Positions 17,267 to 37,193 of a DNA stretch of 40,371 nucleotides are shown here, in pieces. The stretch comes from an uncultured Methanosarcinales archaeon (lineage in GTDB: Archaea; Nanobdellota; Nanobdellia; Woesearchaeales; JAGVZT01), in contig CAYQPU010000013.1 of the NCBI GenBank assembly GCA_964419615.1, forward strand, positions 1-40,371. Direction: 5' to 3'. The stretch's first letter is position 1, and the number at the start of each line of letters is the position of its first letter. The notes under the pieces were generated by a model. The model was not told where the DNA came from and searched no databases. It worked only from the letters and a program-made list of their open reading frames with translations. Made by a program: the position numbers and the translations under genes.

Positions 17267-17455
17267 TGGGCCGGACGGGACTTTCATAACCCTTTCGATT
17301 TCCAAAGCGGATTCGACATAGTCGAAGACGCCACTTTTTGGTCGAGCTTTTGCGCTCTGCGGAAAAGGTCGTTTTGAACCCGCGACCACCTGATTAAAAG
17401 TGTCACCCCTGCCTTCAGGCAAGACAGGTGCTCTGCCTAACTAAGCTACCGGCCC
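17267..17455 (-). tRNA. tRNA-Lys(UUU) with two introns: 30/31 (17402-17424, 23 nt) and 59/60 (17281-17372, 92 nt)
   Basis: Spliced GGGCCGGTAGCTTAGTTAGGCAGAGCACCTGACTTTTAATCAGGTGGTCGCGGGTTCAAATCCCGTCCGGCCCA. BHB central helices CACC/GGTG and TTCA/TGAA. No encoded CCA. Confidence 0.92.
17307..17371 (-). repeat. Shared palindromic intron module, copy in the tRNA-Lys T-loop intron
   Basis: CGACCTTTT-N11-AAAAGCTCGACCAAAAAGTGGCGTCTTCGACTATGTCGAATCCGC; 50 of 65 nt lie in blocks identical to 23376-23440. Confidence 0.85.
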
Positions 17456-17518
17456 TTAAGCCAAAATCCCTTGCAACAGGAATTTATAGCAATATTTTAC
17501 ACCAATCAGATTGGTGAA

Positions 17519-17680
17519 CGCCCTGGCCGGGACTTTCAAACAACCTCACCATTAAAATAGTGAGAGTCATACGTTTTTGAACCCGGGTCGAAGCCTTTCA
17601 ACGGCCTTAAAAGACCAGGAAATCTGGTTTTCCGGTGCCACGACAGGGCTTCATGATAAGCCAGGCTACACCACCAGGGC
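17519..17680 (-). tRNA. tRNA-Asp(GUC) with two introns: 37/38 (17597-17640, 44 nt) and 59/60 (17533-17575, 43 nt)
   Basis: Acceptor GCCCTGG/CCAGGGC, G73; anticodon arm AAGCC-CTGTCGA-GGCTT after splicing. The 37/38 BHB is relaxed. Confidence 0.9.
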
Positions 17681-17843
17681 ATTGCTGAATTGCTGGCCTA
17701 TTTAACCTTCTTCTAGCAAACAGAGTGCTTATTATTCTCTAAACACTAAAAGAAGGATTTCACGACCATGAGCTAGTGGATGTACTTGAATTTATAAATA
17801 TTTCTATTATTAAAATATATAGAAACAGCTAAGATTATAAAAA

Positions 17844-18022
17844 TGCCCCGTCCGGGACTTTCGAACAGCAACCTTTGTTGCAAATCTTCGAACCCAGGTC
17901 CCTGCCTGTCTTCCTTAGAATATGCAAGGAACCACTTGCATTTCCCTTGTCGAAAGGGCAGAATGATTGGTTGCCCAATCTTTTAACATTTGTAAAAGAT
18001 TACCGGACTACACCAACGGGGC
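17844..18022 (-). tRNA. tRNA-Glu(UUC) with three introns: 19/20 (17971-18002, 32 nt), 37/38 (17908-17950, 43 nt), 59/60 (17858-17886, 29 nt)
   Basis: Spliced GCCCCGTTGGTGTAGTCCGGCCAATCATTCTGCCCTTTCGAGGCAGGGACCTGGGTTCGAATCCCGGACGGGGCA. BHB helices GTCC/GGGC, CTTT/GAAG, TTCG/CGAA. Confidence 0.9.
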
Positions 18023-18096
18023 GTAATAATTGTGATTTTGAATTTGTTTTTAAACTTTGTGAATTTATACATATGATTCAGATATAAAAATAAAAA

Positions 18097-18263
18097 TGGG
18101 CCCACGGGGACTTTCCTTCAAACACAAATAGTATCTGCCCTTTGAACCCCGGACCACCGGCTCTCTTAGATTGTACCAATGGTTGTCATATAAGACCGGC
18201 ACTCTAGTTGCCTAGCAATGCCTTAGCATCTGGCAGATTGCTACCAGACTAAGCTATGGGCCC
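18097..18263 (-). tRNA. tRNA-Ile(UAU) with three introns: 19/20 (18208-18243, 36 nt), 37/38 (18163-18188, 26 nt), 59/60 (18111-18140, 30 nt)
   Basis: Spliced GGGCCCATAGCTTAGTCTGGCTAGAGTGCCGGTCTTATAAGCCGGTGGTCCGGGGTTCAAATCCCCGTGGGCCCA. BHB helix C32-T33-T34-A35 pairs with intron TAAG, fixing the anticodon as TAT. Body closely resembles tRNA-Ile(GAU) at 23347-23527. Confidence 0.85.
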
Positions 18264-18417
18264 ATAAAGAATTGAAACAAAAGATTAGTATTTAAAATTT
18301 GTTGTATATTGTATGATCAAATAAAGTCCAAAGAATAGTTTATCTAAAGTTAACAAAAGATTTGTCCTTTGATTAAAAAAAGAAATTTTAAAGTGTGTAT
18401 ACAAGTTAAAGAAAGGA

Positions 18418-18520
18418 TGCGACGGCCGGGGCTTTCGAAGCCAAAGGTTTTGACCTTTTGCTATTCGAACCCGGGCCCCCACCGTGGCAGGGTGGGATCC
18501 TACCACTAGACTACCGTCGC
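18418..18520 (-). tRNA. tRNA-Gly(GCC) with one 59/60 intron (18432-18463, 32 nt)
   Basis: Acceptor GCGACGG/CCGTCGC, A73; anticodon arm CCACC-CTGCCAC-GGTGG; BHB TTCG/CGAA. Confidence 0.93.
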
Positions 18521-18706
18521 TTAATTATTATGAGTTAATTAATCCTATATAAAATTAATGGTATTAAATAGGGACTCATTTTTAAAAAAAGTGATTAGTG
18601 AGTTAATAGATTTTATTATTAATAATTTGGTTAACATTTAATAATTTCACCACTTTTAGATAGTAAAAAACCGAAAGACTTAAATAATTAAAAACACATA
18701 AATTCA

Positions 18707-18955
18707 ATGAATATGTCAAATAGTTCAGGCGTTCCAAGCGTATTTGTTGATTTTATTGACTCTTTACCAGATCTAAATGCAGACATAATTATTAGAGAAA
18801 GTGAATTTCAGTATAGAATTAAAGATAATGGTATTACTCTTGATTGGAAATATACAGGGGGCCTATTAATAGAAACTAATGAGGATACAATTCCACCATG
18901 CCTGAAAGAAGTAACTGGTTCAGATTATAATCGTGTAAAGTTAGTTAGTGAATGA
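18707..18955 (+). CDS. Hypothetical protein, 82 aa, between tRNA-Gly and tRNA-Val
   Basis: ORF with an upstream GAAAGAC-TTAAATA promoter-like motif; no family recognised. Confidence 0.45.
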   Translation: MNMSNSSGVPSVFVDFIDSLPDLNADIIIRESEFQYRIKDNGITLDWKYTGGLLIETNEDTIPPCLKEVTGSDYNRVKLVSE

Positions 18956-19049
18956 CCAAATGTATTTATGTATTTGGATGATAGATTCTTTGGAGTGGAA
19001 CAGCTGAATGAATAATTATACTTATTCTAAATTCAACCAATTAAAAAAA

Positions 19050-19246
19050 TGGGCCCGGCCAGACTTTCTCACTAATGCTCGAAGCATTAATGCCCAAGCA
19101 TTAATATTTGAACTGGCGATCCTCGCCGGTTTTAGCGCAGATAAAATCCAGCAAAAAACTGGTTTTTTGCGCGTGTAAAGGCGATGTCATATGTGGCAAA
19201 AGTCACGTGCGAAACGCAGTTTCTGCAGCCACTAGACCACGGGCCC
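19050..19246 (-). tRNA. tRNA-Val(UAC) with three introns: 20a/21 (19191-19226, 36 nt), 37/38 (19129-19173, 45 nt), 59/60 (19064-19106, 43 nt)
   Basis: Anticodon arm TCGCC-TTTACAC-GGCGA after splicing; BHB helices GTGG/CCAC and TTTA/TAAA; T-loop intron ends GAAAG. Confidence 0.9.
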
Positions 19247-23346: not shown

Positions 23347-23527
23347 TGGGCCCGCGGAGACTTTCAACGTCAAATGCGGATTCGACGAAGTCGAAGACGC
23401 CATTTTTGGTCGAACTTTTAAGCGAAGCGCTAAAAGGTCGTTTTTGAACTCCGGACCACCCGATTTCTATCAATGACAAAACGTCATCTTATCAGTCGGG
23501 CACTCCACCAGACTAAGCTACGGGCCC
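23347..23527 (-). tRNA. tRNA-Ile(GAU) with two introns: 37/38 (23465-23489, 25 nt) and 59/60 (23361-23442, 82 nt)
   Basis: Spliced GGGCCCGTAGCTTAGTCTGGTGGAGTGCCCGACTGATAATCGGGTGGTCCGGAGTTCAAATCTCCGCGGGCCCA. Confidence 0.92.
23376..23440 (-). repeat. Shared palindromic intron module, copy in the tRNA-Ile(GAU) T-loop intron
   Basis: CGACCTTTT-N12-AAAAGTTCGACCAAAAATGGCGTCTTCGACTTCGTCGAATCCGC. Confidence 0.85.
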
Positions 23528-23598: not shown

Positions 23599-23684
23599 CG
23601 CCCCGAGTCAGACTTGAACTGACGACCTTGCGGTTTCAGTAAGACTTTAACAGCCGCACGCTCTACCGACTAAGCTATCGAGGC
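23599..23684 (-). tRNA. tRNA-Asn(GUU) with a 13-nt 37/38 intron (23635-23647)
   Basis: Acceptor GCCTCGA/TCGGGGC, G73; anticodon arm TGCGG-CTGTTAA-CCGCA; uninterrupted T-loop TTCAAGT. Confidence 0.92.
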
Positions 23685-36811: not shown

Positions 36812-36886
36812 CCCTGCCAGGTAAAGGAAAACTTTGGATTTTCCAGACCTGTCAGTGCAATTCAAAAAAAGAATAGCCCTGCCAGG
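36807..36886. repeat. 15-bp direct repeat of the tRNA-Gln 3' end (36807-36821 and 36872-36886)
   Basis: aatagccctgccagg occurs twice, 50 nt apart; it covers tRNA positions 61-73. Confidence 0.8.
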
Positions 36887-37193
36887 ACTTTCACAGACCT
36901 TTTACAAAGCACAGTCAAAGCATTGACTGGTTTGTCTTGTGTCGTGGCCATCTTGTTTTCTAATTGGCCACGTTAATGGGCTTTGAACCCATTCTGTTTT
37001 GATCAAACTTTTCTTAAAAGTTTGTTTTGGTCGAACTTTTAAGCGCAGCGGCAAAAGGTCGTTTCGAACCTGGGTCACTACCTTTCTATGAAACAGAAAT
37101 CCTCAGATGAACTTTTCTTTTTCTGCTATCTCCAAAGGGTAGTATGATTGGTCTCAAACTTTTTAGTTTGTTTGACCACTACACCACAGGGCT
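36874..37193 (-). tRNA. tRNA-Gln(UUG) with three introns: 21/22 (37148-37171, 24 nt), 37/38 (37084-37131, 48 nt), 59/60 (36888-37062, 175 nt)
   Basis: Spliced AGCCCTGTGGTGTAGTGGTCAATCATACTACCCTTTGGAGGTAGTGACCCAGGTTCGAATCCTGGCAGGGCTA; A1-U72 pair typical of archaeal tRNA-Gln. The D-loop boundary may be off by 1-2 nt. Confidence 0.88.
37025..37061 (-). repeat. Shared palindromic intron module, partial copy in the tRNA-Gln T-loop intron
   Basis: CGACCTTTTGCCGCTGCGCTTAAAAGTTCGACCAAAA; 34 of 37 nt identical to the tRNA-Ile(GAU) copy. Confidence 0.85.

What the first reader, a model, noticed from the sequence alone, without database searches (positions are those of the whole stretch)
18097..18263. 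tRNA-Ile with a UAU anticodon, alongside a normal tRNA-Ile(GAU)
Seen: after removing three introns the anticodon loop is CT-TAT-AA. The intron's TAAG pairs with C32-T33-T34-A35, so T34 is supported independently by the BHB. The body is a close paralog of tRNA-Ile(GAU). Established: most archaea read AUA with tRNA-Ile2(CAU) carrying agmatidine made by TiaS; UAU-anticodon Ile tRNAs are rare exceptions reported from Nanoarchaeum equitans and Korarchaeum. Inference: this organism may decode AUA without TiaS and must avoid misreading AUG through an unknown U34 state or ribosomal adaptation.
Basis: partly seen in the sequence, partly recalled or inferred. Interest (0 to 1): 0.75.

Follow-up and report, generated by a model that had tools for sequence, protein, structure and literature searches.

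The report
Three-intron tRNA-Ile(UAU) in a Woesearchaeon
This is a real isoleucine tRNA gene, hidden from standard finders by three introns, that reads the common AUA codon directly with a UAU anticodon in a small DPANN (Woesearchaeota) archaeon lacking the usual enzyme TiaS. The same solution is already published for related tiny archaea, so it is a new example of a known kind.

Summary
Window 18263..18097 (minus strand) is a 167-nt tRNA gene. Removing three bulge-helix-bulge introns (36 nt in the D-loop, 26 nt at 37/38, 30 nt at 59/60) gives a 75-nt cloverleaf that ARAGORN calls tRNA-Ile(tat), with anticodon loop CUUAUAA.

The body is 84% identical to the tRNA-Ile(GAU) gene at 23527..23347.

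The 99%-complete genome is a Woesearchaeota MAG (RpoB 87% to such MAGs). It gave no TiaS or TilS match. I found only two CAU tRNAs, an initiator and one elongator.

AUA makes up 24 per 1000 codons, more than AUG, and behaves as Ile in RpoB alignments.

Thirteen orthologous UAU genes from at least 10 families keep T34, with compensatory stem changes, so a sequencing error is excluded. TiaS was not found in 151 high-quality genomes of the phylum.

The kind is known: Nanoarchaeum equitans (same phylum), Korarchaeum and ARMAN-2/-4/-5 (PMC3239211, PMC6000648). This scan has also noted it on other DNA (Asgard cases).

Two modest additions. Wherever found in this order, the UAU gene carries a 37/38 intron. 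TruA/Pus1 and Cbf5 gave no match, which argues against the eukaryotic pseudouridine route.

How AUG misreading is avoided stays unknown. Interest is low to moderate.

The parts
18097..18263 (-). Whole tRNA-Ile(UAU) gene: 167 nt, four exons and three introns, with no encoded CCA
   Evidence: the precursor folds with z = -6.2 against shuffles
18244..18263 (-). Exon 1: acceptor 5' strand GGGCCCA, U8 A9, D-stem GCUU, D-loop up to G18 G19
18208..18243 (-). Intron 1, 36 nt, in the D-loop after G19. BHB with a 4-bp central helix, a 3-bp outer helix and a 6-bp inner helix. An alternative register one base away gives 34 nt
   Evidence: Same-family orthologues have an intron at the same place (27-32 nt). 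This conformer lies 20 kcal/mol above the predicted MFE
18189..18207 (-). Exon 2: end of the D-loop, D-stem GAGU, G26, anticodon stem CCGGU, loop C32-A37
18190..18192 (-). Anticodon U34 A35 U36
   Evidence: conserved in 13 orthologues
18163..18188 (-). Intron 2, 26 nt, at the canonical position 37/38. Its UAAG pairs with C32-A35
   Evidence: H=4, h'=6, h=2; the same architecture appears in 76 of 201 genomes of the order
18141..18162 (-). Exon 3: A38, anticodon stem GCCGG, variable loop UGGUC, T-stem CGGGG, T-loop U54-A59
18111..18140 (-). Intron 3, 30 nt, at 59/60 in the T-loop. Relaxed BHB: 3 of 4 pairs in the central helix, with the T-stem as outer helix. It ends in GAAAG like most tRNA genes of this genome
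   Evidence: it costs only 1.3 kcal/mol above the MFE
18097..18110 (-). Exon 4: U60, T-stem CCCCG, acceptor 3' strand UGGGCCC, discriminator A73
18289..18296 (-). TATA-like box TTTAAATA, 26-33 nt upstream of G1
   Evidence: read directly from the sequence; function inferred
18084..18096 (-). T-rich run TTTTTATTTTTAT directly after A73, a likely transcription stop
   Evidence: read directly from the sequence; function inferred
23347..23527 (-). Paralogous tRNA-Ile(GAU) gene with a 37/38 intron (25 nt) and a 59/60 intron (82 nt)

Best explanation
The gene encodes the organism's AUA-reading isoleucine tRNA. Steps marked as inferred were not shown here. The gene is probably transcribed from its own TATA-like promoter (inferred). 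The three introns are probably cut out at bulge-helix-bulge motifs by the genome's single EndA-type splicing endonuclease and the exons joined by RtcB (inferred; both genes are present). The mature 75-nt tRNA has the anticodon UAU and a body of the tRNA-Ile(GAU) type with A73, so IleRS probably charges it with isoleucine (inferred from similarity). It pairs with AUA by plain U34-A wobble-position pairing. This replaces the usual archaeal route, in which tRNA-Ile2(CAU) is modified to agmatidine by TiaS. That route seems to be missing from the whole phylum as sampled. The trait is old: UAU and GAU genes form separate orthologous groups across many families of the order. It is not known how U34 is kept from reading AUG. 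The two live options are an unmodified U34 with discrimination by ribosome and IleRS, as in Mycoplasma mobile, or a U34 modification such as the Elp3-dependent xm5U type. The eukaryotic pseudouridine route (Pus1) and H/ACA guidance are unlikely, because TruA/Pus1 and Cbf5 gave no match.
For: Gene and splicing: BHB geometry and the best cloverleaf score in the genome; ARAGORN calls the spliced product tRNA-Ile(tat); EndA is present and RtcB is present.
No alternative decoder: TiaS_FLD and TiaS_TCKD give 0 matches while the controls ring in 4 archaea. TilS gives 0. I found only two CAU tRNAs, the initiator on C5 and the elongator at C12:16611-16748. My inventory of 43 tRNA genes holds no third Ile-like body.
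Need: AUA is 24.4 per 1000 codons, 29% of Ile codons and above AUG at 20.1.
Meaning: own AUA columns in RpoB align with I, L and V and with ATT/ATC in relatives, and Met is not among the top five residues.
Conservation: 13 UAU orthologues in 13 genomes all have the loop CUUAUAA. Compensatory pairs occur at 7:66 (A-U, G-C, U-A), 2:71, 3:70, 4:69, 6:67, 28:42, 29:41 and in the T-stem. Mean identity is 86% within the UAU group, 85% within GAU and 77% between them.
Lineage: RpoB is 87-60% identical to Woesearchaeota/Nanoarchaeota MAGs. TiaS is 0 of 41 in relatives and 0 of 151 in the phylum.
U34 options: an Elp3-like gene is present, TruD is present, TruA/Pus1 is absent and TruB_N/Cbf5 is absent.
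Precedents: PMC3239211, PMC6000648, PMC3575796.
Against: Nothing shows expression, splicing, charging or modification; all of this is sequence inference on a MAG.
The predicted minimum-energy fold of the whole precursor does not display the D-loop and anticodon BHBs. Those conformers lie 20.3 and 11.6 kcal/mol above it.
Only one EndA catalytic-domain gene (223-aa frame) was found, although relaxed BHBs normally need a broad-specificity enzyme.
My tRNA inventory is home-made and lacks a tRNA-Pro(GGG), so at least one gene may have been missed. A hidden, heavily disrupted or split CAU gene therefore cannot be fully excluded.
Absence of TiaS rests on two Pfam models.
Confidence: 0.88

Rival explanations
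1. The locus is a decaying, non-functional copy of tRNA-Ile(GAU) riddled with insertions, and AUA is read some other way.
For: Standard finders do not recognise it. The predicted MFE of the precursor is not the splice-competent fold.
Against: All stems are intact after splicing. Thirteen orthologues across at least 10 families keep the gene, the anticodon and the 37/38 intron, with compensatory changes. No other AUA reader was found, although AUA is the 14th most used codon. Most tRNA genes of this genome are equally disrupted.
Confidence: 0.03
2. Splicing at another junction yields a different anticodon, for example UAA or UGA if the 5' cut falls after position 35 or 34.
For: By arithmetic alone, other junctions that keep a 7-nt loop would give UAA, UGA or AGA (my reading of the sequence). 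Many weaker BHB-like candidates exist in the locus.
Against: Only the 37/38 cut has the full geometry of a 4-bp helix flanked by two 3-nt bulges next to the anticodon stem. Orthologous introns of 19-42 nt all restore CUUAUAA. The body is class I and Ile-like, not Leu or Ser. Separate tRNA-Leu(UAA) and tRNA-Ser(UGA) genes exist.
Confidence: 0.03
3. A tRNA-Ile2(CAU) with a divergent or unrecognised C34-modifying enzyme also exists and is the main AUA reader. The UAU tRNA would then be auxiliary, as in some bacteria that carry both.
For: My inventory misses at least tRNA-Pro(GGG). The assembly has 64 contigs. Split or permuted tRNA genes would escape my searches.
Against: The genome is 99.4% complete. 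There is no TiaS or TilS domain match. TiaS is 0 of 151 across the phylum. CAU-arm scans of the whole genome found only the initiator and one elongator. The single elongator must serve internal AUG.
Confidence: 0.05

Closest known systems
tRNA-Ile(UAU) of ARMAN-2, -4 and -5 (Micrarchaeota/Parvarchaeota; Fujishima et al. 2011, PMC3239211)
   Same: These are DPANN archaea with no TiaS and no tRNA-Ile(CAU). The UAU gene carries a ~25-nt intron at 37/38 in a BHB, and other tRNAs carry 59/60 introns with relaxed motifs. Splicing of the ARMAN-2 pre-tRNA-Ile(UAU) was shown in vitro.
   Different: This is a different DPANN lineage (Woesearchaeota). The gene here has two further introns (D-loop and 59/60). 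ARMAN-2 uses a three-unit epsilon2 endonuclease, whereas here I found only one gene with one catalytic domain, of untyped architecture.
tRNA-Ile(UAU) of Nanoarchaeum equitans and Candidatus Korarchaeum cryptofilum (PMC6000648 and the works it cites: Ikeuchi 2010, Mandal 2010)
   Same: These are the only two of 167 archaeal genomes with a UAU gene in that survey. In Korarchaeum the gene is the closest relative of the same genome's tRNA-Ile(GAU) and differs by carrying an intron, exactly as here. N. equitans belongs to the same GTDB phylum as this MAG, if the phylum searched is Nanoarchaeota as the record titles suggest.
   Different: That paper reads the gene as a species-specific gain. Here it is shared across a whole order, with separate UAU and GAU lineages and phylum-wide lack of TiaS.
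Mycoplasma mobile tRNA-Ile2(UAU) (Taniguchi et al. 2013, PMC3575796)
   Same: AUA is read by a UAU anticodon in an organism that lost the C34-modifying enzyme. This offers a tested model: unmodified U34, an adapted IleRS, and a ribosome that rejects AUG.
   Different: It is a bacterium with a bacterial-type IleRS (Arg865 in the Zn-binding domain) and an intron-less gene. Nothing here shows that U34 is unmodified.
Eukaryotic tRNA-Ile(UAU) with the anticodon pseudouridine-A-pseudouridine
   Same: It is a minor Ile tRNA for AUA that always carries an intron next to the anticodon. IleRS is of the shared archaeal/eukaryotic type (from PMC3575796 and my general knowledge).
   Different: Its pseudouridines are made by Pus1 (TruA family) in an intron-dependent way. 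This genome gave no TruA-family and no Cbf5 match.

Membership tests
Archaeal tRNA-Ile(UAU), AUA decoder of TiaS-less archaea | Canonical tRNA cloverleaf with conserved nucleotides after intron removal | tested here: met
   ARAGORN calls tRNA-Ile(tat) over 75 of 75 nt. U8, A14, G18G19, A21, U33, A37, U54U55C56 and A58 are present.
Archaeal tRNA-Ile(UAU), AUA decoder of TiaS-less archaea | Anticodon UAU encoded in the DNA and not a private error | tested here: met
   The anticodon lies at window 18192-18190. It is identical in 13 orthologues from 13 genomes and in 76 of 201 genomes by pattern. Raw reads were not available.
Archaeal tRNA-Ile(UAU), AUA decoder of TiaS-less archaea | Isoleucine identity (charged by IleRS) | not testable with these tools
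   Indirect only: 84% identity to the same genome's tRNA-Ile(GAU), A73, and the same D-arm and variable loop. AUA columns behave as Ile.
Archaeal tRNA-Ile(UAU), AUA decoder of TiaS-less archaea | No TiaS in the genome | tested here: met
   PF08489 and PF22641 give 0 matches at 99.4% completeness, and the controls ring in 4 archaea. The count is 0 of 41 and 0 of 151 in relatives and phylum. TilS gives 0.
Archaeal tRNA-Ile(UAU), AUA decoder of TiaS-less archaea | No tRNA-Ile2(CAU): only initiator and elongator Met carry CAU | tested here: met
   Two CAU genes were found. Caveat: the finder is home-made, and the inventory lacks tRNA-Pro(GGG).
Archaeal tRNA-Ile(UAU), AUA decoder of TiaS-less archaea | AUA codons are in use and mean isoleucine | tested here: met
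   AUA is 24.4 per 1000 codons. In RpoB, AUA columns align to I, L and V and to ATT/ATC, not Met (one protein, 13 relatives).
Archaeal BHB tRNA introns | Two 3-nt bulges separated by a 4-bp helix, with cuts at symmetric positions in the bulges | tested here: met
Intron 1 has the full motif (4, 3 and 6 bp). Intron 3 is relaxed (H 3/4, outer 5 bp). The nearest-neighbour energy model does not favour the BHB1 and BHB2 conformers.
Archaeal BHB tRNA introns | Splicing endonuclease and RNA ligase encoded | tested here: met
   EndA catalytic domain, 101 bits, 223-aa frame on C3. RtcB, 538 bits, on C1.
Eukaryote-type pseudouridine-A-pseudouridine tRNA-Ile | Pus1/TruA-family pseudouridine synthase (or H/ACA-Cbf5) available to act on U34/U36 | tested here: not met
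   PF01416 gives 0 matches and PF01509 gives 0 matches, with controls ringing in 13 and 14 genomes. Only TruD is present.

The most novel reading that the evidence does not exclude
In this order the tRNA-Ile(UAU) gene is never found without its 37/38 intron: 13 of 13 in an intron-blind sample, and 0 real intron-less arms in 201 genomes. Five of 13 GAU paralogues lack an anticodon intron. The intron's 5' half is sequence-conserved across many families. The intron may therefore be needed for a maturation step that sets the state of U34 or U36 and prevents AUG misreading. Such a step would resemble the eukaryotic one in logic, but it would need an enzyme other than Pus1 or H/ACA-Cbf5, since neither gave a match here.
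Probability: 0.15. Interest if true: 0.6.

Novelty: new member of a known kind. Interest (0 to 1): 0.3.

Why it matters
It adds Woesearchaeota, one of the largest DPANN groups, to the archaea that read AUA with a UAU anticodon instead of agmatidine. Lack of TiaS also holds across the sampled phylum that contains Nanoarchaeum, so the trait looks ancestral there and not a species-specific gain as proposed in PMC6000648.

In practice, it shows that standard tRNA finders recover only about 10 of at least 43 tRNA genes in such genomes. Annotations of these MAGs will therefore wrongly report missing decoders.

How U34 avoids AUG in archaea is still an open question. This lineage offers many natural sequence variants for testing it, but no cultured representative that I know of.

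Tried and rejected
- ARAGORN with and without intron mode, Rfam gathering and E-value scans, and Infernal on the whole genome all miss the gene and most other tRNAs.
- Brute-force intron removal judged by ARAGORN alone was too permissive and gave many spurious anticodons per locus. I replaced it with an explicit cloverleaf plus BHB score.
Stricter G+C filters were used instead.
- Anticodon-arm scans without context were swamped by chance hits. Masking long ORFs or requiring a T-arm made them usable.
- A search for G+C-rich islands outside ORFs found no further tRNA-like loci. It found rRNA, other structured RNAs and a repeated motif.
- Whole-precursor MFE folding does not reproduce the splice-competent structure, so I did not use it to place the junctions.
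- An alternative hBH-type intron at 13/14 (29 nt) was rejected. It would remove the conserved AGUCUGG D-loop that all orthologues keep.
- The three intron-less pattern hits in the order are not tRNAs: position 27:43 is mismatched and ARAGORN finds nothing.
- Paper searches found no report on TiaS, agmatidine or tRNA-Ile(UAU) in Woesearchaeota in the held library.

Full report
**What is there.** On the minus strand of window 18263..18097 lies a 167-nt gene. It starts with GGGCCCAUAGCUUAGUCUGG and ends with UCCCCGUGGGCCCA. ARAGORN, Rfam at gathering and E-value thresholds, and an Infernal scan of the whole genome do not report it.

ARAGORN finds only 10 tRNA genes in the whole 1.48-Mb genome (33.4% G+C, 99.4% complete). 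The reason is visible in the sequence. Window 17267-19246 holds six tRNA genes on the minus strand, all broken by introns, and nearly all have an insertion in the T-loop that ends in GAAAG just before nucleotide 60.

**Exon-intron structure.** I wrote a search for bulge-helix-bulge (BHB) motifs: a 4-bp helix flanked by two 3-nt bulges, with the cut after the second bulge base. I combined it with an explicit cloverleaf score. This locus received the highest score of any locus in the genome (42). The best solution with another anticodon scored 30.

The three introns are:
- 36 nt in the D-loop after G19 (window 18208-18243);
- 26 nt at the canonical 37/38 position (18163-18188);
- 30 nt at 59/60 (18111-18140).

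The 37/38 intron has the textbook geometry. C32-U33-U34-A35 pairs with the intron's UAAG, the bulges are U36-A37|U and A-G|A38, and the anticodon stem CCGGU/GCCGG continues outside.

The spliced 75-mer is called tRNA-Ile(tat) by ARAGORN over its full length, with a 7-bp acceptor stem, loop CUUAUAA, T-loop UUCAAAU and A73. A TTTAAATA box lies 26-33 nt upstream and a T-run follows A73.

**Caveat on folding.** The precursor is strongly structured (MFE -75.2 kcal/mol, z = -6.2), but the minimum-energy fold is not the splice-competent one. Forcing the 59/60 BHB costs 1.3 kcal/mol, the 37/38 BHB 11.6 and the D-loop BHB 20.3.

I therefore rest the junctions on comparison, not on energy. Orthologues without a D-loop intron have the same D-arm layout: GCUU, AGYCUGG, two or three bases, GAGY. 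Same-family orthologues carry a D-loop intron of 27-32 nt at the same place. The D-loop junction may be off by one base. The anticodon does not depend on it.

**Paralog.** The tRNA-Ile(GAU) gene lies at 23527..23347 on the same strand. After splicing the two differ at 12 of 75 positions. The differences are pair 7:66, the D-loop, two anticodon-stem pairs, position 34 and one T-stem pair.

**Is it the AUA reader?**
- TiaS: the ferredoxin-like and kinase domains of TiaS give no match in the genome, while the same searches ring in four control archaea. Bacterial TilS gives none.
- tRNA inventory: my list reaches 43 genes covering all 20 amino acids.
- CAU anticodons: two genes carry CAU. One is an initiator on contig C5, with A1-U72 and the GGG/CCC anticodon stem. 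The other is an elongator at C12:16611-16748. Scans for further CAU anticodon arms, with and without introns, found nothing tRNA-like. No third gene has an Ile-type body.
- Gap in the inventory: it lacks tRNA-Pro(GGG), so it is not perfect.
- Codon use: AUA accounts for 24.4 per 1000 codons and 29% of Ile codons, and is more frequent than AUG.
- Meaning: in RpoB, columns where this genome has AUA hold I, L and V in relatives, with the unambiguous codons ATT and ATC the most common. Met is not among the five commonest residues. Columns with ATG hold Met.

**Who is it, and how widespread is the trait?** The RpoB gene next to the tRNA cluster (Pfam) is 87-60% identical to proteins of MAGs titled Candidatus Woesearchaeota or Nanoarchaeota. 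This agrees with earlier notes of this scan on the same genome.

TiaS was not found in 40 relatives spanning 34 families of the order, nor in 151 genomes of the phylum at 90% or more completeness.

A search with the first 20 nt of the gene is blind to anticodon and introns. Followed by my solver, it gave 13 tRNA-Ile(UAU) and 13 tRNA-Ile(GAU) genes in relatives. All 13 UAU genes have the loop CUUAUAA. The stems show compensatory changes, for example 7:66 as A-U, G-C or U-A, and 28:42 and 29:41 as C-G/U-A and G-C/U-A.

UAU genes share U31 with A39 or G39, while GAU genes share A31-U39. Mean identity is 86% within UAU, 85% within GAU and 77% between them. The duplication is therefore older than the order's radiation, and T34 cannot be a sequencing error.

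A pattern for the anticodon arm with its intron matched 76 of 201 genomes of the order. About 65 of these hits look genuine by their conserved intron start, roughly UG(G/A)CCACGUUYUAAACA. The reversed control pattern also gave a few dozen hits.

**The intron.** All 13 UAU genes of the intron-blind sample have a 37/38 intron (19-42 nt), whereas 5 of 13 GAU genes have no anticodon intron. A pattern for an intron-less UAU arm matched 3 of 201 genomes. All three have a mismatched 27:43 pair and no tRNA by ARAGORN, so they are chance hits. Relatives are not independent, so I treat this as an observation and not as a test.

**How U34 might avoid AUG.** This is not shown. The genome encodes an Elp3-like protein and TruD. 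It gave no match to the TruA/Pus1 family or to Cbf5/TruB.

What remains is an unmodified U34 with an adapted ribosome and IleRS, as shown for Mycoplasma mobile (PMC3575796), or an xm5U-type or unknown modification.

**Comparison with what is known.** ARMAN-2, -4 and -5 possess tRNA-Ile(UAU) and lack tRNA-Ile(CAU) and TiaS. The ARMAN-2 gene has a 25-nt 37/38 intron that was spliced in vitro (PMC3239211). Among 167 archaeal genomes, only N. equitans and K. cryptofilum had the gene, and in Korarchaeum it is the intron-bearing twin of tRNA-Ile(GAU) (PMC6000648).

I found no paper in the held library that reports this for Woesearchaeota. This scan has noted the same thing many times on other DNA, mostly in Asgard archaea. 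The finding is thus a new member of a known kind.

**Unpublished genomes.** G006 is among the 41 genomes. G118 and G138 are among the 201 genomes, and both are among its 76 matches. No sequence from them is used in the alignment.

Noticed in passing
window 17267-19246 (minus strand): A cluster of six intron-laden tRNA genes: Val(UAC) 19050-19246, Gly(GCC) 18418-18520, Ile(UAU), Glu(UUC) 17844-18022, Asp(GUC) 17519-17680 and Lys(UUU) 17267-17455. Further genes in the window are Asn(GUU) 23599-23684, Ile(GAU) 23347-23527 and Gln(UUG) 36874-37193. Standard finders see only Asn.
   Followed up: partly
genome-wide, e.g. window 17267-17455; G000:C43, C21, C35, C10, C3: About 35 of 43 tRNA genes have a 59/60 T-loop intron ending in GAAAG. 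The long ones (80-147 nt) share a conserved sequence: CCAAAAGUAAUGGGACUU..AGUCCCAU..GGUGAUG..AUCACCAC..UUGAAAG. They therefore look like one repeated, structured intron family.
   Followed up: no
G000:C5:56835-57093 (+), C16, C19, C11, C26: There are three tRNA-Trp(CCA) genes, two of them adjacent on C5, plus two tRNA-Tyr(GUA) and two tRNA-His(GUG) genes. One copy of each pair, together with Asn, Thr(GGU) and Arg(UCG), lacks the T-loop intron, and most of these have a different T-loop (UUCAAGU, UUCGAGG or UUCGAUU). This looks like a second, differently built set of tRNA genes.
   Followed up: no
about 20 intergenic sites, e.g. G000:C12:21028, C12:36678, C4:28374, C7:35321, C23:990: A G+C-rich motif of the form GCUCCACCUGGCCAGUUCG..GCCAGUUUG recurs. 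It may be the shared tail of the leader mini-genes that earlier notes of this scan describe for this genome.
   Followed up: no
G000:C3:32082-32342 (-): Only one splicing-endonuclease catalytic domain was found, in a 223-aa frame. Yet the genome is full of non-canonical and relaxed BHB introns, which normally need a heteromeric or three-unit enzyme. The architecture is untyped.
   Followed up: partly
whole genome G000: There is no match to TruB_N/Cbf5 or to TruA-family pseudouridine synthases in a 99%-complete archaeal genome. TruD and an Elp3-like gene are present.
   Followed up: partly
reverse-complement positions 29965-30199 of contig G000:C3 (minus-strand gene): The tRNA-Leu(GAG) gene appears to have C instead of U at position 33 (loop UCGAGGG). 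I parsed it by hand only.
   Followed up: no
window 18707-18955 (+): An 82-aa ORF between the tRNA genes has no Pfam match. It may be spurious.
   Followed up: partly
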